This document shows, one piece after another, positions 1 to 7,336 of a DNA stretch of 7,336 nucleotides. Position 1 is the stretch's first letter, and every line of letters begins with the position of its first letter. Below the pieces are notes generated by a model, which was not told where the DNA came from, ran no database searches, and worked only from the letters and a program-made list of their open reading frames with translations. This DNA comes from a virus (lineage: Duplodnaviria; Heunggongvirae; Uroviricota; Caudoviricetes), in IMG/VR virus record IMGVR_UViG_2541047844_000003. One strand, written 5' to 3'. Made by a program: the position numbers and the translations under genes.

Positions 1-95
1 GCACTGGGTTATCGCTCGCCACGGGAATATCTACGGCAGCAAGCCAGTAATGGGTTAAGTGATAACAGGTGTCTGGAAATATAGGGGCAAATCCA
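1..95 (+). mobile_element. 3' terminus of an IS2 insertion sequence (partial; element continues upstream of the window)
   Basis: Frame 1 reads through from the window edge as ...ALGYRSPREYLRQQASNGLSDNRCLEI, stop at 82-84, which I recognise as the C-terminus of the IS2 transposase (InsD). The sequence TAGGGGCAAATCCA at 82-95 matches the IS2 terminal inverted repeat as recalled. No alignment was run. Confidence 0.65.
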
Positions 96-350
96 CTTTG
101 CACACTCGCCTGGTTATGGCGAGCAAGTGATACGATGTTAACCGCCTGCCAGAACGTTACGCCCCTTCTTCAGGTCGCAGAGCATCGCGAAGCAGGTAGA
201 TTCACTTCAATCGAACAAGAATATCCTCGGATACTCAACAGGGCGCGAGAAATCCTTGCCAGAGAAACGGCGCATGTAAAATTCCAACCGTGGCAGGATG
301 ATAAGTGGAGTCGTGTGTTACCATATTTCCGTCAGAATCTGTTGCAATAA
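69..350 (+). CDS. hypothetical ORF spanning the IS2 junction; residues from 96 onward may be the 3' remnant of a gene interrupted by IS2
   Basis: Six-frame track ORF with a GTG start that lies inside the IS2 terminus. Downstream of the IS2 end only this frame is open (85 codons, 96-350); the other two + frames hit stops within about 45 nt. First internal ATG at 135. Product not recognised. Followed by a strong terminator. Confidence 0.3.
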   Translation: MSGNIGANPLCTLAWLWRASDTMLTACQNVTPLLQVAEHREAGRFTSIEQEYPRILNRAREILARETAHVKFQPWQDDKWSRVLPYFRQNLLQ

Positions 351-369
351 AGTCACTAGTTAGAAATAC

Positions 370-410
370 TGCCAGCATTCTGCGATGACGGAAGTGCTGG
401 CATTTTTTTT
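370..410 (+). terminator. rho-independent terminator
   Basis: Perfect 8-bp inverted repeat TGCCAGCA (370-377) / TGCTGGCA (395-402), followed by a run of eight T (403-410), about 20 nt after the stop at 348-350. Confidence 0.65.
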
Positions 411-527
411 GGTAATGTGCGAGTCCATTTCATAAAATACGGGTACTGGAACTGGACGATATAATCTAAAAGATACCATTATCAGTAGCATTAAAATCGC
501 TATGTGCCGATACGGATATAAATTATA

Positions 528-580
528 TTGATTGTTCACATACCTTATTGGATATTACTGAGGGGTGTTTATATAAGGTG
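528..580 (+). promoter_or_regulatory. candidate sigma70 promoter and ribosome-binding site for the 169-aa ORF
   Basis: AT-rich region 413-585. Possible -35 TTGATT (528-533), 17-nt spacer, -10 GATATT (551-556), and Shine-Dalgarno AAGGTG (575-580) 5 nt before the ATG at 586. Assigned by eye only. Confidence 0.3.
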
Positions 581-585
581 TAACG

Positions 586-1095
586 ATGATGTGGAACTTT
601 GACAGTGCCGACTTAAGTGCAATAGCAGCAGGCATTTCTGCGTTTGGCACATTAGCCGCAGCGGGGTCGGCGCTTGCAAGTTGGTGCACGTCAAAAAAAG
701 CGCTGCAGCTACAAAATAGAGTTTACCTTTATGAGTCTTTAAAGGCTTGCGCTGAGAGAGCCAATTCATCAGCTAAAGATAAGCGCGGATCTGAATGGAG
801 CGTTAATGATGCAGCGGATATCATCAGGTGCCTAGTACGGGCGATGGAGCTCATCAAGCAGGATAGCCAGCAGAAAGAAGGTAATCAGGCATTAATGTTG
901 AAACAGTACTTTGTTAATCTGCTAATAATGGAACTGTACGAGGAAGTTCATAACGGTGATGCGGCTGATTCTGTTTTTAAAAGTACGGAACCTACACAAG
1001 TACTTGATAACTTATGGAGCAAATGGCAGGAGGCTATAGCTTTTTTTGATATTTGGAATTACCCAGTTGCGACTGAGGAAGACTTGGCAGACTAA
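586..1095 (+). CDS. hypothetical membrane-anchored protein, 169 aa, function unknown
   Basis: Track ORF starting ATGATG. Acidic N-terminus (MMWNFDSAD), then a ~24-residue Ala/Gly-rich hydrophobic segment (LSAIAAGISAFGTLAAAGSALASW), then KK and a ~135-residue soluble, apparently helical domain with an acidic C-terminus. No family recognised. Sits where lambda carries ren, between the replication genes and ninB. Confidence 0.6.
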   Translation: MMWNFDSADLSAIAAGISAFGTLAAAGSALASWCTSKKALQLQNRVYLYESLKACAERANSSAKDKRGSEWSVNDAADIIRCLVRAMELIKQDSQQKEGNQALMLKQYFVNLLIMELYEEVHNGDAADSVFKSTEPTQVLDNLWSKWQEAIAFFDIWNYPVATEEDLAD

Positions 1096-1289
1096 TTTTC
1101 AGCACATTTGATTTCCAATAATCAACCAGCCATAATCATGCCATTGGAGCTTGAACAACTCCGGTGACTTCTGCGCTAAACGGGGACGTTTATGCGCACA
1201 TACAATCCAAACTCTCTTCTCCCTTCACAGATGCAGAGATGCACCTGCGATTTTTTGCATCCAGCGTTTGACCTCTGCGGAGGTGAAGC

Positions 1290-1745
1290 GTGAACCTCCC
1301 ACAAGACGGCATCAAATTGCATCGTGGTAACTTCACCGCTATCGGCCAGCAGATCCAGCCTTATCTGGAGGAAGGCAAATGCTTTCGCATGGTGCTTAAA
1401 CCGTGGCGTGAGAAACGCAGTCTTTCCCAGAATGCACTCAGCCACATGTGGTACAGCGAAATCAGTGAATACCTCATCAGCAGGGGTAAAACGTTCGCCA
1501 CTCCAGCTTGGGTAAAAGATGCTCTCAAACACACATATCTCGGTTATGAAACCAAAGACCTGGTTGATGTCGTAACCGGTGAGATCACCACTATCCAGTC
1601 GTTACGCCATACCTCCGATCTTGATACCGGAGAGATGTATATCTTCCTGTGTAAGGTTGAAGCCTGGGCGGTGAATATTGGCTGCCACCTGACTATTCCG
1701 CAGAGCTGCGAGTTCCAGCTGCTGCGCGACAAGCAGGAGGCGTAA
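1290..1745 (+). CDS. ybcN: NinB/Orf-family recombination protein (YbcN-like)
   Basis: 151 aa with GTG start at 1290, preceded by GGAGGTG. The stretch [20 protein letters not shown] resembles the lambda NinB motif RSLDQN. Gene order matches the DLP12 nin region. Confidence 0.8.
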
Positions 1746-1915
1746 TGGCTACACCGCTTATTCGTGTCATGAACGGACACATCTACAGAGTACCAAATCG
1801 TCGTAAGCGTAAACCTGAGCTGAAGCCATCCGAAATACCAACACTGCTCGGATATACCGCCAGCTTGGTTGATAAAAAATGGTTGCGACTGGCAGCAAGG
1901 AGGAATCATGGCTGA
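1745..1915 (+). CDS. ninE: NinE-family protein, 56 aa
   Basis: Absent from the ORF track (below its length cutoff). ATG at 1745 overlaps the ybcN stop (TAATG). Translation [56 protein letters not shown] is basic, stop TGA at 1913-1915. Position and size match ninE of lambdoid phages. Confidence 0.7.
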   Translation: MATPLIRVMNGHIYRVPNRRKRKPELKPSEIPTLLGYTASLVDKKWLRLAARRNHG

Positions 1916-2198
1916 TTTGAGAAAAGCAGCGCGTGGTCGGGAATGCCAGGTAAGAATCCCTGGCGTATGTAATGGCAATTCTGAGACGTCTGTACTGGCA
2001 CATATCCGGCTGGCTGGATTGTGCGGTACCGGTATCAAACCGCCAGACCTGATTGCCACCATTGCATGTTCTGCCTGCCACGACGAAATCGACCGCCGCA
2101 CGCATTTTGTTGACGCTGGATATGCAAAAGAATGCGCGCTGGAAGGTATGGCGAGAACGCAGGTTATCTGGCTGAAAGAGAGGGTAATTAAGGCGTGA
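1908..2198 (+). CDS. ybcO: YbcO-like protein (DUF1364, putative Cys/His metal-binding nuclease), 96 aa
   Basis: ATG at 1908 preceded by AAGGAGGAATC; product [26 protein letters not shown]... with several Cys and His. The track's 109-aa version starts further upstream inside ninE; the ATG with the RBS is preferred. Overlaps the ninE stop. Confidence 0.8.
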
Positions 2199-2557
2199 AT
2201 ACTTACCACATCACACTACCCTGGCCTCCGAGCAATAATCGCTATTACCGCCATAATCGCGGGCGCACGCACGTCAGCGCAGAGGGGCAGGCATACCGCG
2301 ATAACGTCGCCCGAATCATTAAAAACGCAATGCTGGATATCGGCCTGGCTATGCCTGTGAAAATCCGCATTGAGTGCCACATGCCGGATCGCCGTCGCCG
2401 TGACCTGGATAATCTGCAAAAAGCCGCTTTTGACGCACTCACTAAAGCAGGTTTCTGGCTGGATGATGCTCAGGTCGTTGATTACCGCGTTGTGAAGATG
2501 CCTGTTACCAAAGGTGGGAGGCTGGAACTGACCATCACCGAAATGGGGAATGAATGA
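2195..2557 (+). CDS. rusA: RusA Holliday-junction resolvase, 120 aa
   Basis: Product [37 protein letters not shown]... is near-identical to E. coli RusA as I recall it, including the acidic cluster RRRDLDN...DDAQ. GTG start overlaps the ybcO stop (GTGA). Confidence 0.9.
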
Positions 2558-2694
2558 TGTTTGAGTTTAATATGGCAGAACTTCTTCGCCACCGCTGGGG
2601 GCGTCTGCGCTTATATCGTTTCCCCGGCTCTGTTTTGACCGATTACCGAATACTGAAGAATTACGCCAAAACACTGACAGGAGCAGGAGTATGA
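2554..2694 (+). CDS. ylcG: YlcG-like small protein, 46 aa
   Basis: Absent from the ORF track (short). ATG at 2554 overlaps the rusA stop (ATGA); product [46 protein letters not shown], stop 2692-2694. Matches the DLP12 ylcG position. Confidence 0.6.
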
Positions 2695-2779
2695 AGTCAG
2701 AGATAACAATCAACTAATACTGTTTTGTTGATTTTTGCTTGTAATTGGCGTTCTGGTCTGAGTTTTGTGGAGTAAGTTG

Positions 2780-3163
2780 ATGCGTGATATTCAGATGGTT
2801 CTTGAGCGTTGGGGAGCGTGGGCGGCTAATAATCATGAAGATGTGACCTGGTCGTCCATTGCCGCCGGTTTTAAGGGATTAATTCCTTCAAAAGTAAAAT
2901 CTCGCCCGCAATGTTGTGACGATGACGCGATGATCATTTGCGGGTGCATGGCCCGTCTGAAAAAGAACAACAGCGATTTGCACGATTTATTAGTAGATTA
3001 TTATGTAGTCGGTATGACATTCATGTCACTGGCAGGTAAGCATTGCTGCTCTGATGGTTATATCGGGAAAAGGTTACAAAAGGCTGAGGGCATAATTGAA
3101 GGGATGTTAATGGCATTAGATATCCGGTTAGAGATGGATATCGTTGTTAATAACTCTAATTAA
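2780..3163 (+). CDS. quuD: late-gene antitermination protein Q (phage 21/82-type Q family), 127 aa
   Basis: Product [26 protein letters not shown]... with Cys clusters ([15 protein letters not shown]), consistent with a small Q antiterminator; matches DLP12 QuuD as recalled. ATG at 2780 preferred over the track's upstream TTG at 2765 because GGAG lies about 8 nt upstream. Confidence 0.8.
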
Positions 3164-3196
3164 TATGCCAATTGTTTACTAAAAATTATTAAAAAT

Positions 3197-3214
3197 GGGG
3201 CGTTGAGACGCCCC
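3197..3214 (-). terminator. candidate rho-independent terminator for the nmpC transcript
   Basis: GGGGCG (3197-3202) / CGCCCC (3209-3214) stem with a 6-nt loop. On the minus strand the stem is followed by ATTTTTAATAATTTTT. About 140 nt beyond the nmpC stop. Confidence 0.4.
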
Positions 3215-3302
3215 CAAAAATAAAGGGTAATATATAACAGAAGGTTTATATAGTTAGAAGCAAGGTTGTGCTTCTAAAGGAAGTGGCTTGAGGGAGCCAC
3301 TT

Positions 3303-3344
3303 ATATGTTGGGGAGGCAACGCCTCCCGCAACATATCTTTTTCG
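3303..3344 (+). terminator. rho-independent terminator downstream of Q
   Basis: Long stem ATATGTTGGGGAGGC (3303-3317), loop AAC, GCCTCCC-g-CAACATAT (3321-3336, one bulged G), followed by CTTTTT (3337-3342). About 15 bp of pairing. Confidence 0.55.
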
Positions 3345-3352
3345 TAATCAGA

Positions 3353-4435
3353 TTAGAACTGGTAAACCAGACCTACAGCAACGATGTCATCAGTATCAAT
3401 ACCAGCTGTTTTGGTAAACTTACTATCGTCAATTAAGTTGATTTTGTAATCAACAAAAGTGGACATGTTTTTATTAAAGTAGTAAGTAGCACCGACATCG
3501 ACATACTTGACTAAGTCTCGGTCACCATGAACACCAAGGTCTTTACCTTTTGACTGAAGGTAAGCAACAGATGGGCGCAGACCGAAGTCAAACTGATATT
3601 GTGCTACTGCTTCAAAGTTTTGTGCTTTGTTTGCAATATGGTTATTACCAAAAACGGTCATATTCTGAGTTTCAGAATATGTGGTAGCCAGATAGATATT
3701 GTTCGCATCATATTTCAGGCCTGCAGCCCATACTTCCGCATTTTTGCCGGAGGCATTGAATTTGCTCTTACCATAGGCGACCTGACCGTCAGTGCGATCT
3801 GATTTAGCATAGGTTGCACCCACGCCGAATCCTTCATACTCATAAGTAGTGGAGAAACCGAAACCATCACCATTGGCTTCAGTTACGTCAGTGCGGTCAT
3901 TTTTACCCTGATACTGAGCAGCAAAGTTCAGGCCATCGACCAGACCAAAGAAGTCGTTGTTACGATAAGTTGCAACACCAGTAGTGCGACCAGTCATGAA
4001 CACATCTGTTTGGGTCCAGGTATCACCACCGAATTCTGGCAGGACGTCAGTCCACGCACCGATGTCGTATGCTACACCGTAGTTACGGCCGTAATCGATT
4101 GAGCCGTAATCACCAAATTTCAGGCCTGCAAATGCAAGACGGGTTTTGTCTTTGGAAGAACCTTGAGATTCAGCGCGGTTGCCTTTGAATTCATATTCCC
4201 ACTGACCGAAACCAGTCAGTTGATCGTTGATTTGGGTTTCACCTTTGAAGCCAAGACGGGCATAAGTAGTATCACCATCATCTGCATCATTAGAGGAGAA
4301 GTAGTGCTTAGCATTAACTTTCCCGTACAGATCCAGCTTGTTACTGTCTTTATTATAAATTTCAGCTGCCTGAGCAGACATCGCCATCAGTACTGATGCA
4401 GCTACAGCAGAAATTGCCACTGTTAATTTTTTCAT
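3353..4435 (-). CDS. nmpC: outer-membrane general porin, OmpC/OmpF/PhoE family (NmpC / Lc-type prophage porin), 360 aa, apparently intact
   Basis: Signal peptide [23 protein letters not shown] followed by AEIYNKD; porin-typical Gly/Tyr/Asp-rich beta-strand sequence; C-terminal ...VGLVYQF ending in Phe, typical of beta-barrel outer-membrane proteins. Opposite orientation between Q and the lysis genes, as in DLP12 and phage PA-2. Confidence 0.9.
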
Positions 4436-4645
4436 CGTGAGCCCTTTTTTTTGAACTATTATTAAAAAATGATGTCACTGCGCGATAAATATTCATCTAA
4501 TCAATGTGATTATTTCAAGATGTAAGTTTTGGTTTCTCGTTTAATTTGTGAAGTAGATCTCTATTTTTATCTGAACTTTTTTCTATCGAATCCTATTCAT
4601 GGCTCTTGGCTGAATAAAAATAAATCTATTAGCCAATTTATATTA

Positions 4646-4674
4646 ATGGCTGTTATTTATAAGTGCTCTATAAT
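4646..4674 (+). promoter_or_regulatory. candidate late-promoter (PR'-like) -10 element
   Basis: Perfect TATAAT at 4669-4674 with a poor -35 (ATGGCT at 4646-4651, 17-nt spacer), about 190 nt upstream of the terminator at 4864-4896. Flanked by inverted 9-mers AGCCAATTT (4631-4639) and AAATTGGCT (4690-4698). Speculative. Confidence 0.2.
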
Positions 4675-4863
4675 TTGAAGGTTCAATTTAAATTGGCTAA
4701 AAATAACGCTGGAAATTATTTGTTGGTTATTTGTTGAGATTTGCTTATGTATTTGTAGTGGTGTTTTCAATACTCGGTAGCATTCTCGCAAATATCATTT
4801 AGTGGTTTACGTACGTAAAAAATTGGTTATGCTGTTAAGAGTGGTTACTTCGTCACACAGCTT

Positions 4864-4896
4864 AAACCCGCCGTCGAGCGGGTTTTTCCATTTTTT
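4864..4896 (+). terminator. rho-independent terminator upstream of the lysis cassette (tR'-like)
   Basis: AAACCCGC (4864-4871) / GCGGGTTT (4878-4885) stem with loop CGTCGA, followed by TTCCATTTTTT. About 110 nt before the essD start. Confidence 0.55.
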
Positions 4897-5008
4897 GAGT
4901 CTCGATATTAGCTGATAACCCAATACCTGAGTTATTCACTGACTCCGAGTCTGTTACGTTTCGTAGTATTCCCTCAATTTACACCCGCTTTGTCTGCGAG
5001 GTGGGGTT

Positions 5009-5224
5009 ATGAAATCCATGGATAAGTTAACAACGGGTGTCGCCTATGGCACCTCAGCAGGTAGTGCCGGGTACTGGTTTTTACAGCTGCTCGATAAAGT
5101 CACGCCCTCACAGTGGGCAGCAATAGGTGTGCTGGGTAGCCTGGTATTTGGCCTGCTGACGTACCTGACAAACCTTTATTTCAAGATTAAAGAAGATAAG
5201 CGCAAGGCTGCGAGAGGTGAATAA
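5009..5224 (+). CDS. essD: class II holin (phage 21 S-type pinholin) with dual-start motif, 71 aa
   Basis: Product [71 protein letters not shown] matches S21 as recalled. Two in-frame starts (ATG 5009 and ATG 5018, Met1-Lys-Ser-Met4). Two hydrophobic segments and a basic C-terminus. GAGGTG upstream. Confidence 0.9.
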
Positions 5225-5721
5225 TGCCTCCATCATTACGAAAAGCTGTTGCTGCTGCTATTGGTGGCGGGGCTATTGCTATAGCATCTGTGTTAATCAC
5301 TGGCCCAAGTGGTAACGATGGTCTGGAAGGTGTGAGACATAATCCTTACAAAGACATAGTTGGTGTATGGACTGTATGTTACGGGCATACAGGAAAAGAC
5401 ATCATTCCCGGTAAAACGTATACCGAAGCAGAGTGCAAAGCCCTCCTGAATAAAGACCTTGCCACTGTCGCCAGACAAATTAACCGGTACATCAAAGTCG
5501 ATATACCGGAAACAACGCGCGGCGCTCTTTACTCGTTCGTCTACAACGTGGGTGCTGGCAATTTCAGAACATCGACGCTTCTTCGCAAAATAAACCAGGG
5601 TGATATTAAAGGCGCATGTGATCAGCTACGGCGCTGGACATACGCTGGCGGTAATCAATGGAAAGGACTGATGACTCGCCGTGAGATTGAGCGTGAAGTC
5701 TGTTTGTGGGGGAAACAATGA
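5224..5721 (+). CDS. rrrD: SAR (signal-anchor-release) endolysin, lysozyme family, 165 aa
   Basis: N-terminal Gly/Ala-rich weakly hydrophobic SAR segment ([20 protein letters not shown]) followed by a T4-lysozyme-like domain ([10 protein letters not shown]..., [11 protein letters not shown]). Start overlaps the essD stop (TAATG). Matches phage 21 R / DLP12 RrrD as recalled. Confidence 0.9.
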
Positions 5722-6185
5722 GCAGAGTAACCGCGATTATCTCCGCTCTGGTTATCTGCATCATCGTCTGCCTGTCATGGGCTGTTAATCATTACCGTGA
5801 TAATGCAATCGCCTACAAAGAACAGCGCGATAACAAGGCCAGTGAACTGGAGAAGGCGAACGCCACCATTACTGACATGCAGCAGCGCCAGCGTGATGCT
5901 GATGCACTCGATGATAAATACACGAAGGAGTTAGCTGATGCGAAAGCTGAAAATGATGCTCTTCGGCGCAAGCTTGATAATGGTGGTCGGGTGCTCGTCA
6001 AAGGAAAATGCCCTGTGCCATCCTCAGCCGAAACCTCCAGCGCCTCCGGCATGGGCAATGATGCCACCGTCGAACTCTCTCCAGTTGCTGGACGAAACGT
6101 TCTCGGTATCCGGGACGGAATTATCCGCGACCAAACAGCATTGAGAACGCTTCAGGAATACATCAGGACGCAATGCCTTCGATGA
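5718..6185 (+). CDS. rzpD: inner-membrane spanin subunit Rz (i-spanin), 155 aa
   Basis: ATG at 5718 overlaps the rrrD stop (ATGA). Product [40 protein letters not shown]... has an N-terminal TM helix, a coiled-coil-like central region and a C-terminal Cys, matching lambda Rz at the N-terminus as recalled. The track's start at 5706 is less likely. Confidence 0.85.
5938..6144 (+). CDS. rzoD: outer-membrane lipoprotein spanin subunit Rz1 (o-spanin), embedded in the +1 frame of rzpD
   Basis: Product [39 protein letters not shown]... has a lipoprotein signal with lipobox VVGC and a proline-rich stretch; GGAG upstream of the ATG; lies entirely within the Rz gene as in lambda Rz/Rz1. Exact start (Met1, Met6 or Met7) uncertain. 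Confidence 0.8.
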
Positions 6186-6358
6186 TAGCGATAATTTTAC
6201 TCATCATCCTTCACATCTGGCTCTGTAGACAGGGTGGTGCTCACTTCTGGAGTGAATCCAGATTAAACATCTCATTGCTGATGCTTGATATTGAGCATTT
6301 TGCGCGCGGTAAGGGGCTGCGTTGAGATAAGAGCCAGTCATTACAAATACCAGGATTT

Positions 6359-6385
6359 AGCCTCGCATTCGCGGGGCTTTTTATT
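6359..6385 (+). terminator. candidate rho-independent terminator after the lysis cassette
   Basis: Stem AGCCTCGC (6359-6366) / GCGGGGCT (6371-6378) with one G-U wobble, loop ATTC, followed by TTTTATT (6379-6385). Confidence 0.45.
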
Positions 6386-6394
6386 GCCATTACA

Positions 6395-6420
6395 AAAGCC
6401 ACTTCCTACAGAGTGGCTTT
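6395..6420. terminator. perfect 9-bp inverted-repeat hairpin, possible bidirectional terminator
   Basis: AAAGCCACT (6395-6403) / AGTGGCTTT (6412-6420) with an 8-nt loop; T-rich 3' flank on both strands. Confidence 0.35.
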
Positions 6421-6676
6421 GATAATGGCTTATACCCTACACGGGATAACTTAACTGATATCCCTTTTAAAGGATAAAGGTATTCAAGCCTGACACATCA
6501 TGCGCTGTATCGTCGCCGTATTCCCGTATTAACAGAGACCGTAGCCCGACGGGGAACTCCTTCTGCGCGAGTGTGCGGGAATAATCAATAACGATGCACA
6601 CCGGGGTTACCGGGTACACATATTTCATCATGCCAGCGAGTCCGGTTCTGGCACGGAAGAAACCGGACGTTATGAT

Positions 6677-7087
6677 TTAGTGCGGAAATATTTGTGTAGT
6701 GTTCTGAATGTTCTCAGTAAAGAGTAATGAATTATCAAAGGTATAGTAATACCTTTTGTTTTCGTGGATATTTGTAATCCATCTGAAAACCCCTGCTGTA
6801 GCAAGATTTTTCCTGTATTCGTAAAATGATAACTCTCCTGATTTGAATCCTTTTAAGGTGGCTTCTATAAGGCATTTATTTTTTGAAAATCTTACATTTA
6901 CAACCTTACTCTGTCCTTTTATTAAAACCGTATTATCGTTTTCAAGAACAAGATGAATATTCTCTGTGGCTAAATAGTAAATGTAATGTGAGACATTGTG
7001 ACGTTTTAGTTCAGAATAAAACCAGTGATAGTTTAAATTATTTCGCACTTTATCGAATATTTGTTTAAAAATGGCAACCTGAGCCAT
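6677..7087 (-). CDS. ybcV: DUF1398-family protein (YbcV-like), 136 aa, function unknown
   Basis: Product [58 protein letters not shown]... matches DLP12 YbcV as recalled. ATG at 7087 preferred over the track's 7102 because GGAAGG lies about 8 nt upstream. The gene is markedly AT-rich. Confidence 0.8.
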
Positions 7088-7091
7088 TGTA

Positions 7092-7117
7092 GTACCTTCC
7101 ATGTGATATGAAGGTAC
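7092..7117 (-). promoter_or_regulatory. 8-bp perfect inverted repeat overlapping the ybcV ribosome-binding site; possible operator or RBS-sequestering hairpin
   Basis: GTACCTTC (7092-7099) / GAAGGTAC (7110-7117) with a 10-nt spacer. In the minus-strand mRNA the arm CCTTC can pair with the GGAAGG Shine-Dalgarno of ybcV. Confidence 0.3.
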
Positions 7118-7144
7118 CTAGTCTGCACGATTATCTAAATTGCT

Positions 7145-7336
7145 TCAATCTGGTCTGACCTGCTTTCTGAGCAATTCAGTAATGTCACTCTTTTCTTTGT
7201 TTGCTTCAGGCGAAACTCTTTTTTCTGAGCACAGTCTTCGGCGGCAGGCTTCAATGACCCAGGCTGAGAAATTCCCAGACCCTTTTTGCTCAAGAGCGAT
7301 GTTAATTTGTTCAATCATTTGGTTAGGAAAGCGGAT
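7145..7336 (-). CDS. partial ORF (5' end beyond the window) with ribbon-helix-helix-like (Arc/CopG-type) features
   Basis: Minus-strand frame open from the window edge: IRFPNQMIEQINIALEQKGSGNFSAWVIEACRRRLCSEKRVSPEANKEKSDITELLRKQVRPD, stop at 7145-7147. The pattern of a short strand (IRFP), a helix, G-S-G-N, then a second helix resembles the Arc repressor fold. Ends 57 bp upstream of ybcV on the same strand. Confidence 0.45.
   Translation of the reverse strand: MRFPNQMIEQINIALEQKGSGNFSAWVIEACRRRLCSEKRVSPEANKEKSDITELLRKQVRPD

What the first reader, a model, noticed from the sequence alone, without database searches (positions are those of the whole stretch)
3353..4435. Intact prophage-borne porin gene inserted in opposite orientation between Q and the lysis genes
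The nmpC-like porin ORF is full length with an intact signal peptide and a C-terminal Phe, whereas in E. coli K-12 nmpC is a pseudogene interrupted by IS5. An intact prophage porin is a lysogenic-conversion candidate that could alter outer-membrane permeability or phage-receptor availability. Its opposite orientation within the late region, with its own flanking terminators, is typical of a moron.
Basis: partly seen in the sequence, partly recalled or inferred. Interest (0 to 1): 0.4.

Follow-up and report, generated by a model that had tools for sequence, protein, structure and literature searches.

The report
Known phage porin plus IpeX module
This is an intact copy of the well-known Lc/NmpC porin gene that lambda-like E. 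coli prophages carry together with a small RNA (IpeX) that turns down the host's own porins; it is real and functional-looking, but common and already described.

Summary
Window 3353-4435 (- strand) is an uninterrupted 360-aa general porin with a signal peptide, the PEFGGD loop-3 motif and a C-terminal Phe. It lies between the Q antiterminator and a phage-21-type lysis cassette.

It is not new. The protein is 100% identical to porins of isolated phages (ev017, ev207, 2G7b, Perceval, PhiR11_1) and 92% identical to PA-2 Lc. A near-full-length copy occurs in 2,503 of 5,426 complete E. coli genomes. The IS5-broken K-12 nmpC is the exception. Perceval's identical porin is reported as expressed in the LF82 lysogen.

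- The 167 nt after the stop codon (3186-3352) are the known sRNA IpeX. It is co-transcribed with the phage porin and is reported to repress host OmpC/OmpF. So the unit is a porin-swap module.
- The late promoter pR'-qut-tR' lies at 4806-4896, beyond the porin. The cassette therefore sits in the Q-pR' gap, outside the late transcript. The upstream "flanking terminator" is tR'.
- Related phages carry other reverse-oriented cargo in that same gap.

Allelic variation is confined to five blocks inferred to be loops L4-L8.

Verdict: already known, low interest.

The parts
2780..3163 (+). Late-gene antiterminator Q (QuuD-type, Pfam Phage_antitermQ). This is the last gene before the cargo slot.
   Evidence: Pfam E=9.7e-54. 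Annotated quuD in the 100%-identical chromosome and in K-12. Homology to the Q genes of VT1-Sakai and PhiR55_1 ends at about 3112-3139.
3186..3352 (-). Porin 3' UTR, identified as the IpeX small RNA (167 nt). It folds into three tandem hairpins, a weak fourth hairpin and an intrinsic terminator.
   Evidence: 100% identical to the corresponding DNA of DLP12, PA-2 and 434B. MFE -62.9 kcal/mol, z=-10.1. The length from the stop codon to the end of the U-run equals the published 167 nt. It is directly preceded by a complete porin ORF in 105 of 111 loci. The fold is kept with compensatory changes in P7-type and u16-type variants. Function comes from the literature only.
3189..3214 (-). Intrinsic terminator of the porin/IpeX transcript (GGGGCGU-CUCA-ACGCCCC followed by AUUUUUAAU).
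   Evidence: Terminator scan; fold.
3303..3342 (+). Terminator-like hairpin plus CTTTTT on the + strand (the complement of IpeX hairpin 1). It could stop read-through from Q before it enters the porin gene antisense.
   Evidence: Fold -28.6 kcal/mol, z=-5.0. The insulating role is inferred.
3353..4435 (-). Intact Lc/NmpC-type general porin, 360 aa. The signal peptide is encoded at 4367-4435. Variable blocks lie at aa 182-187, 216-227, 263-267, 302-306 and 335-347.
4436..4804 (-). AT-rich (28-39% GC) porin upstream/regulatory region. It holds a CRP-like site at 4544-4564, a candidate -35 TTGAAA at 4513-4518 and a candidate -10 GAATAT at 4489-4494.
   Evidence: 97% identical to the PA-2, K-12 and 434B upstream DNA, including the proximal CRP site annotated in PA-2. 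Composition. No strong sigma-70 consensus was found by the scan, so the promoter hexamers are my inference.
4806..4896 (+). Late promoter pR' (-35 TTTACG 4806-4811, -10 TATGCT 4828-4833), initially transcribed/qut region (about 4840-4860), and tR' terminator (hairpin 4864-4885 plus T-run).
   Evidence: 78-86% identical to the VT1-Sakai segment annotated 'putative late promoter / Q-utilization / rho-independent terminator for pR' transcript' and to PhiR55_1. Homology starts exactly at the -35. Terminator scan.
5009..6185 (+). Phage-21-type lysis cassette, the first late genes: holin (5009-5224), lysozyme (5224-5721), Rz (5718-6185) and embedded Rz1 (5938-6144). In the 434B record the homologous genes are annotated class II holin/antiholin and SAR endolysin.
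   Evidence: Pfam Phage_holin_2_1, Phage_lysozyme, Phage_lysis and Rz1. 434B annotation of the homologous genes.

Best explanation
The locus is the classical lambdoid 'porin moron': an Lc/NmpC-type general-diffusion porin gene fused to the IpeX small RNA in its 3' UTR. It sits in reverse orientation in the gap between the Q gene and the late promoter pR'.

Proposed mechanism:
1. In the lysogen, the cassette is transcribed from its own activator-dependent promoter. Published transcriptome work links nmpC expression to a shift to 37 C, and the PA-2 record annotates CRP sites upstream of lc.
2. The mRNA yields a Sec-exported trimeric 16-strand porin.
3. Its 3' end gives IpeX, which lowers translation and stability of host ompC and ompF mRNAs.
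4. The net effect is a porin swap. The cell surface shows the phage-specified porin, whose loops L4-L8 differ between alleles, in place of OmpC/OmpF. This changes permeability and removes receptors used by OmpC/OmpF-dependent phages and colicins.
5. On induction, late transcription starts at pR' downstream of the cassette and runs away from it.

What is shown here: gene intactness, family membership, identity to known phage porins, conserved flanks, the IpeX sequence and fold, the position of pR', and the loop-restricted variation. What comes from the literature: expression in lysogens and repression of OmpC/OmpF. What is my inference: the exact promoter, and receptor exclusion as the selected benefit.
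For: - Intact ORF with full-length Porin_1 and phrog_410 matches.
- 63% and 59% identical to K-12 OmpC and OmpF, with PEFGGD and the terminal Phe conserved.
- 100% identical to porins of isolated phages including Perceval. The Perceval NmpC is reported at 10-fold above local background in the LF82 lysogen (PMC9928086).
- nmpC genes are strongly up at 37 C in CFT073, at both RNA and protein level (PMC12890032).
- 92% identical to PA-2 Lc, and flanks 97-100% identical to PA-2, DLP12 and 434B.
- IpeX is reported as 167 nt, made from the phage porin promoter as part of the porin transcript, and repressing OmpC/OmpF (PMC12197685; PMC5069750; PMC8065619).
- The 167-nt 3' UTR folds with z=-10.1. It follows a complete porin in 105 of 111 loci. 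It keeps its fold through compensatory changes.
- pR'/qut/tR' maps to 4806-4896.
- Presence/absence polymorphism of the cassette among phages with the same Q family.
Against: - No expression or outer-membrane data exist for this particular strain.
- The consensus scan found no strong sigma-70 promoter upstream of the porin.
- nmpC-type genes are described as 'quiescent' in K-12 and B strains (PMC3333887).
- The gene has been inactivated independently several times: by IS5, by IS1 and by deletion. It is therefore dispensable and perhaps costly.
- Porin-carrying phages have several different J receptor-binding domains, so a simple 'exclude my own receptor' logic is not demonstrated.
- My IpeX-ompC duplex test was not significant (z=-0.8).
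Confidence: 0.85

Rival explanations
1. The porin mainly serves host physiology (permeability, nutrient uptake, heat, pH or antibiotic tolerance) rather than phage exclusion. Any receptor effect is a by-product. This overlaps with the best explanation and is not exclusive of it.
For: Strong induction at 37 C in a uropathogen, and a cited report that NmpC over-expression confers heat resistance (PMC12890032). The porin occurs with several unrelated J receptor-binding types and also in P1/P7-type plasmid prophages. This argues against a link to one phage's own receptor.
Against: The obligatory linkage to IpeX, an OmpC/OmpF repressor, in 105 of 111 loci suggests that replacing host porins is the selected trait. 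Variation is confined to the blocks inferred to be exposed loops L4-L8, which points to surface recognition pressure rather than channel tuning.
Confidence: 0.3
2. The gene is intact but silent ('quiescent') cargo that is simply hitch-hiking and on its way to decay, as in K-12 and B strains.
For: nmpC is described as not expressed in many laboratory strains (PMC3333887). IS5, IS1 and deletion alleles exist. No strong consensus promoter was found.
Against: There are thousands of intact copies: 1,187 records at >=99% identity and 2,503 genomes with near-full-length copies. The flanks are nearly invariant and the ORFs are intact in 23 different alleles. Expression is reported for the identical Perceval gene and for the CFT073 nmpC genes.
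Confidence: 0.1
3. It is a late (lytic-cycle) gene, or the chromosomal OmpC orthologue as the PGAP label 'porin OmpC' suggests.
For: It lies between Q and the lysis genes. The NCBIfam OmpC-subfamily score is above the cut-off, and RefSeq names it ompC.
Against: It is antisense to the late genes and upstream of pR'. It is only 63% identical to K-12 OmpC. It lies inside a complete lambdoid prophage at tRNA-Arg (argU). The NCBIfam model is of type 'subfamily', not 'equivalog'.
Confidence: 0.02

Closest known systems
Lc porin ('protein 2') of lambdoid phage PA-2 (GenBank J02580)
   Same: Same position and orientation between Q and the lysis genes. 92% protein identity with an identical 23-aa signal peptide. 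Upstream DNA is 97% identical and downstream DNA 100% identical, including the proximal annotated CRP site and the IpeX region.
   Different: The window allele is 360 aa against 365 aa. It differs in five blocks inferred to be loops L4-L8: a 3-residue shorter L4, a 2-residue shorter L5, and substitutions in L6-L8.
nmpC of cryptic prophage DLP12 (E. coli K-12, b0553) with ipeX
   Same: The window prophage occupies the same tRNA-Arg (argU) integration site in the 100%-identical genome, next to the same intD, ybcN-ninE-ybcO-rusA-ylcG-quuD and essD neighbours. The window is 98% identical to DLP12 over 1120-3394 and 91.5% over 3428-5962.
   Different: K-12 nmpC is interrupted by IS5 after codon 346 and encodes the Lc-like 365-aa allele. 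The window copy is intact, is a different loop allele, and lacks the CTAA IS5 target at that codon. In the matching genome the prophage is complete from int to the tail fibres, whereas DLP12 is a remnant. bor is absent from the window.
Porins of isolated temperate coliphages ev017, ev207, 2G7b, Perceval (LF82) and PhiR11_1/49_1/57_1/63_2
   Same: 100% identical protein in the same Q-porin-holin arrangement. The Perceval gene is listed among morons expressed in the lysogen.
   Different: The surrounding DNA is about 96% identical rather than identical. Nothing differs functionally as far as sequence shows.
NmpC of P1-like phage P7 (AF503408)
   Same: 83% identical porin, followed by a homologous 3' element with the same hairpin architecture maintained through compensatory changes.
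   Different: It is carried on a P1-type plasmid prophage next to ssb, not in a lambdoid Q-pR' gap. It has a longer L4/L5 and an 18-nt insertion before the terminator.
Chromosomal general porins OmpC, OmpF and PhoE (solved structures 2J1N, 2OMF, 1PHO)
   Same: Same family and inferred fold. 63% and 59% identity to OmpC and OmpF, with the PEFGGD loop-3 motif and the C-terminal beta-signal.
   Different: It is a phage-borne paralogue. It has much shorter loop 4 than OmpC and different regulatory DNA, and it is linked to a repressor RNA that targets those same host porins.

Membership tests
General bacterial porin family (Pfam PF00267 Porin_1; OmpC/OmpF/PhoE type) | Full-length match to the family profile above the curated threshold | tested here: met
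   504.7 bits against a 23.7 cut-off, profile positions 1-337 of 337. PDB phmmer E about 1e-137 to OmpC chains.
General bacterial porin family (Pfam PF00267 Porin_1; OmpC/OmpF/PhoE type) | Cleavable Sec signal peptide and a C-terminal beta-signal ending in Phe | tested here: met
   [23 protein letters not shown]|AE is identical to the annotated PA-2 sig_peptide. The C-terminus is VGLVYQF.
General bacterial porin family (Pfam PF00267 Porin_1; OmpC/OmpF/PhoE type) | Loop-3 constriction motif PEFGGD | tested here: met
   [10 protein letters not shown] at residues 131-140 aligns with the same motif in OmpC and OmpF.
General bacterial porin family (Pfam PF00267 Porin_1; OmpC/OmpF/PhoE type) | Trimeric 16-strand beta-barrel with channel activity | not testable with these tools
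   The single-sequence AlphaFold model was unusable (pLDDT 32.7). The fold is inferred from about 60% identity to solved porins.
Lc/NmpC lambdoid phage porin moron | High identity to Lc/NmpC, and location in reverse orientation between Q and the lysis genes of a lambdoid prophage | tested here: met
   92% identity to Lc. Arrangement confirmed.
Lc/NmpC lambdoid phage porin moron | Moron anatomy: own terminator, own promoter, and presence/absence polymorphism among otherwise related phages | tested here: inconclusive
   The terminator criterion is met. The polymorphism criterion is met: VT1-Sakai has no insert, while PhiR55_1 and ev087 carry other cargo. The promoter criterion is open: there is no strong consensus hit, only a conserved CRP-like site and weak hexamers.
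Lc/NmpC lambdoid phage porin moron | Expression from the repressed prophage (lysogenic conversion) | not testable with these tools
   Literature only: the identical Perceval gene is reported at 10-fold over background in LF82, and CFT073 nmpC genes are induced at 37 C.
IpeX small RNA | Sequence identity to the DLP12/PA-2 element immediately 3' of the phage porin stop codon, about 167 nt, ending at an intrinsic terminator | tested here: met
   100% identity over the whole porin-Q intergenic region. 3352 to 3186 is 167 nt. No Rfam family exists or matched.
IpeX small RNA | Repression of ompC/ompF | not testable with these tools
   Literature only. My duplex test was uninformative (ompC z=-0.8, ompF z=-2.6).
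Chromosomal OmpC (PGAP name 'porin OmpC') | Orthology to ompC: near-identity and the chromosomal ompC-micF locus | tested here: not met
   63% identity to K-12 OmpC. It is located inside a prophage at tRNA-Arg (argU). The NCBIfam hit is to a 'subfamily' model, and the equivalog models for PhoE and OmpF fall below their cut-offs.

The most novel reading that the evidence does not exclude
The gap between the Q gene and its target promoter pR' in this Q family may be a dedicated slot for reverse-oriented, envelope-modifying morons: porin plus IpeX here, a Blc lipocalin in Lambda_ev087, and an unknown phrog_3152 protein in PhiR55_1. The antisense placement downstream of Q could let delayed-early read-through switch the cargo off on induction. 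The porin/IpeX pair would then be a mobile two-part 'porin-swap' cassette shared by lambdoid and P1-type phages, with loops L4-L8 diversifying under phage or immune pressure.
Probability: 0.3. Interest if true: 0.4.

Novelty: already known. Interest (0 to 1): 0.12.

Why it matters
The finding matters little as a discovery. The gene, its phage origin, its lysogenic-conversion role and its companion sRNA are already in the literature held here, which cites work going back to 1975. The allele is present in a large fraction of E. coli genomes.

It matters more for annotation:
- RefSeq/PGAP calls it 'porin OmpC' and PHROGs calls the family 'unknown function'.
- IpeX is not annotated in any of the records retrieved here, and no Rfam family matched it.
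- As a result, automated pipelines hide a porin-replacement module that can affect antibiotic permeability, phage-therapy host range and porin-based typing in clinical E. coli.

The mapped position of pR' and the alternative cargo in the same slot are useful for anyone engineering or interpreting lambdoid late regions.

Tried and rejected
1. Single-sequence AlphaFold2 of the porin, meant to assign loops. Mean pLDDT was 32.7, so I discarded it. Loop assignment rests instead on the roughly 40-residue periodicity of the variable blocks and on indels against OmpC and OmpF.
2. Genome-wide probe with the hairpin-2 core (GTGGCNCCCTCANGCCAC) in genome contigs. Hits were mostly chance matches in GC-rich genomes: only 4 of 119 loci also matched IpeX by blastn, one of them an E. 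coli contig. The scan is not informative about taxonomic range. The same probe in viral contigs was useful.
3. RNAduplex of IpeX against the ompC and ompF leaders. It gave unrealistic full-length duplexes (ompC z=-0.8, ompF z=-2.6), so I treat it as inconclusive.
4. Rfam scan of the window at E<=1. It gave no credible hit and no IpeX family.
5. svsR, an sRNA from a lambdoid prophage. I checked it and it is unrelated: it targets lamB.
6. Receptor inference from the J C-terminus of the matching prophage. It is about 43% identical to lambda J. Porin-carrying phages have several J types. The receptor is not resolvable here.
7. Original IpeX paper (Castillo-Keller et al. 2006). It is not held in the library, so I used secondary sources.
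8. PADLOC scan of the porin and neighbouring unknown ORFs. No hits.
9. The idea that the distal PA-2 'CRP site' regulates the porin. I consider this unlikely, because the site lies inside the pR' initially transcribed region, about 400 bp from the porin start.

Full report
**Observation**

Window 3353-4435 on the - strand encodes 360 aa from an ATG, with no interruption.
- It matches Pfam Porin_1 over the whole profile (E=1.9e-151).
- It passes the NCBIfam OmpC-subfamily cut-off.
- It matches the phage family phrog_410 end to end (E=2.9e-223).
- The N-terminus [23 protein letters not shown]|AEIYNK is identical to the 23-aa signal peptide annotated for PA-2 lc.
- The loop-3 motif PEFGGD and the C-terminal ...VGLVYQF are present.

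The neighbours on the + strand are ybcN, ninE, ybcO, rusA, ylcG and a Q antiterminator upstream. Downstream lie a phage-21-type holin, a lysozyme and Rz/Rz1. In the 434B record the homologous holin and lysozyme are annotated class II holin/antiholin and SAR endolysin.

**Context**

Window positions 95-7336 are 100% identical to several E. coli chromosomes. In strain eco-241 the segment lies in a complete lambdoid prophage, running from int to the tail fibres. That prophage is integrated at a tRNA-Arg gene next to fimZ, the position of argU and the cryptic prophage DLP12 in K-12. The window is 98% identical to DLP12 over 1120-3394 and 91.5% over 3428-5962. It is therefore an intact relative of DLP12.

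**The requested comparison**

In MG1655, IS5 sits after nmpC codon 346.
- Read-through there gives ...NDFTKEGANKSLI*, which removes the last beta-strand and the terminal Phe.
- Removing IS5 and one copy of its CTAA target duplication restores a 365-aa ORF that is nearly identical to PA-2 Lc.
- Isolate 434B of phage 434 carries the same IS5-interrupted allele.
- The window gene has no frameshift or truncation relative to Lc (92% identity).
- At the K-12 insertion point the window allele reads ACC AAA rather than ACT AAA, so the CTAA target is absent there.

**How ordinary it is**

- The protein is 100% identical to porins of isolated temperate phages: ev017, ev207, 2G7b, Perceval and PhiR11_1/49_1/57_1/63_2.
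- 2,503 of 5,426 complete E. coli genomes hold a copy covering at least 80% of the gene, and 1,187 records match at >=99% identity.
- Disrupted copies also occur: IS1 insertions in strain 3359 and NCTC10537, IS5 in K-12, and a 5' deletion in BL21.
- PGAP names the gene 'porin OmpC', but it is only 63% identical to K-12 OmpC and 59% to OmpF. It is a phage paralogue, not the ompC orthologue.

**Expression, from the literature**

[quoted passage not shown] Its value is 10-fold (PMC9928086).
- In CFT073, two nmpC genes are strongly induced at 37 C against 23 C, at both RNA and protein level (PMC12890032).
- PMC3333887 notes that nmpC is silent in K-12 because of the insertion element.

The 189-bp interval between the porin stop codon and Q is 100% identical in the window, PA-2, DLP12 and 434B. 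On the porin strand, the 167 nt from 3352 to 3186 fold into three strong tandem hairpins, a weaker one, and a canonical terminator (GGGGCGU-CUCA-ACGCCCC followed by a U-run). The MFE is -62.9 kcal/mol with z=-10.1.

This matches the published IpeX sRNA:
- It is 167 nt long and comes from DLP12.
- It controls OmpC (PMC12197685).
- It is reported to repress translation of ompC and ompF (PMC5069750).
- PMC8065619 attributes IpeX to phage PA2, which that review describes as Stx-producing.

Rfam gave no match, and none of the annotated records retrieved here lists it.

I probed IMG/VR with the hairpin-2 core. Of 111 loci with an IpeX-like element, 105 have a complete porin ORF directly upstream. 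Five more hits lie at contig edges, and in one locus the porin is about 1.26 kb away.

Three sequence lineages exist: the main lambdoid type, a P7/P1 type and 'u16'. They keep the same fold, and 10 of 50 consensus pairs show double-sided compensatory changes. This covariation evidence is modest, because there are only about three independent lineages and the probe itself fixed hairpin 2.

**Where the late promoter is**

An 82-bp block at window 4805-4887 is 78% identical to VT1-Sakai and 86% identical to PhiR55_1.
- In VT1-Sakai this block is annotated 'putative late promoter', 'putative Q-utilization' and 'rho-independent terminator for pR' transcript'. It abuts the 3' end of a Q gene of the same Pfam family.
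- Homology begins exactly at the -35.
- Transferring the annotation gives pR' at -35 TTTACG (4806-4811) and -10 TATGCT (4828-4833), and tR' at 4864-4885 plus a T-run.
- Homology between the Q genes ends at about 3112-3139.

So the porin/IpeX cassette (about 3140-4804) is inserted between Q and Q's own target promoter. It is therefore outside the late transcript.
- Late transcription starts beyond the cassette and runs away from it.
- The 5'-side 'flanking terminator' is tR'.
- A + strand hairpin followed by CTTTTT at 3303-3342 (the complement of IpeX hairpin 1; z=-5.0) could insulate the porin from read-through out of Q. This is my inference.
- The distal 'CRP site' of the 1986 PA-2 record maps to 4840-4860, inside the pR' initially transcribed region. 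It is probably not a porin regulator.
- The proximal site (4544-4564) is conserved. With weak hexamers TTGAAA (4513-4518) and GAATAT (4489-4494), it would sit near -72.5 of a class-I CRP promoter. This too is inference, and the consensus scan found no strong promoter.

**A cargo slot**

Phages with the same Q family carry other reverse-oriented genes in the same gap:
- A Blc lipocalin in Lambda_ev087 (Pfam Lipocalin_2, 2e-43).
- A 148-aa protein of unknown function (phrog_3152) in PhiR55_1.
- VT1-Sakai has no insert at all.

**Allelic variation**

I recovered 23 distinct porin alleles, 79.5-99.7% identical to the window's.
- Residues 1-180 are almost invariant.
- Variation and indels fall in five blocks: aa 182-187, 216-227, 263-267, 302-306 and 335-347.
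- The blocks are spaced about 40 residues apart and coincide with the indels against OmpC and OmpF.
- I therefore assign them to external loops L4-L8. This could not be confirmed structurally, because the single-sequence model failed (pLDDT 32.7).

The flanks are far more conserved than the loop-coding interior. This fits recombination or diversifying selection on surface-exposed parts.

**Mechanism and confidence**

I am about 85% confident that this is the Lc/NmpC plus IpeX module acting as a lysogen-expressed porin swap. It would install a phage-specified porin while IpeX lowers OmpC/OmpF. I am less sure that receptor exclusion, rather than permeability or stress adaptation, is the selected benefit.
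- Porin-carrying phages have several different J receptor-binding domains. The J tip of the matching prophage is only about 43% identical to lambda J.
- My IpeX-target duplex calculation was uninformative.

**Verdict**

The feature is already known and common. The added value lies in the IpeX assignment, the corrected transcriptional map and the Q-pR' cargo-slot observation.

Noticed in passing
window 3140-4804; L006 2176-2776 (PhiR55_1); L007 2194-3060 (Lambda_ev087); L005 613-701 (VT1-Sakai): The gap between the Q gene and the late promoter pR' holds different reverse-oriented cargo in related phages: porin plus IpeX here, an unknown 148-aa phrog_3152 protein in PhiR55_1, and a Blc lipocalin in Lambda_ev087. 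VT1-Sakai has nothing there. This looks like a moron hot-spot for envelope-related genes.
   Followed up: partly
window 4840-4860: The distal 'CRP binding site' annotated in the 1986 PA-2 record (J02580 1067-1087) maps inside the pR' initially transcribed/qut region, about 400 bp from the porin start. It is probably part of the late-gene switch rather than a porin regulator.
   Followed up: partly
window 5963-6500: This segment has no homology to DLP12, which carries borD between Rz and ybcV. bor is absent here. Instead there is a 50-aa ORF (6173-6325, phrog_11822, function unknown) that overlaps the end of Rz.
   Followed up: partly
window 1-94: The first 94 bases do not match the genomes that are otherwise 100% identical from 95 onward. 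This points to a mosaic junction. The ORF at 69-350 resembles the C-terminus of anti-repressor Ant-like proteins (phrog_7640 and phrog_245).
   Followed up: partly
window 586-1095: A 169-aa ORF in the nin region has no Pfam, NCBIfam or PADLOC match. It matches only phrog_1779 (function unknown) and is not present in DLP12.
   Followed up: partly
window 3405-3418; L002 10588-10591 and 11783-11786: IS5 in K-12 nmpC duplicated a CTAA target in codons ACT AAA. The window allele reads ACC AAA at the same place, so it lacks that target site.
   Followed up: yes
E. coli genome hits H111, H121, H139-H142; L004 (434B): The prophage porin has been inactivated independently several times: IS1 insertions (strain 3359, NCTC10537), IS5 (K-12 lineage and phage 434B) and a 5' truncation (BL21). 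This suggests it is dispensable or costly in some settings, notably in laboratory strains.
   Followed up: no
window 3353-4435: Annotation inconsistency. PGAP names the gene 'porin OmpC', phage records call it OmpD, NmpC or 'hypothetical protein', and PHROGs lists its family (phrog_410) as 'unknown function'. IpeX is not annotated in any retrieved record and no Rfam family matched it.
   Followed up: yes
window 6677-7102 and 7145-7318 (- strand): Two reverse-oriented small genes lie downstream of the lysis cassette: DUF1398 (YbcV-like) and DUF3950 (YlcI/YnfO-like). They form another possible moron pair of unknown function, about 83% identical to the DLP12 versions.
   Followed up: no
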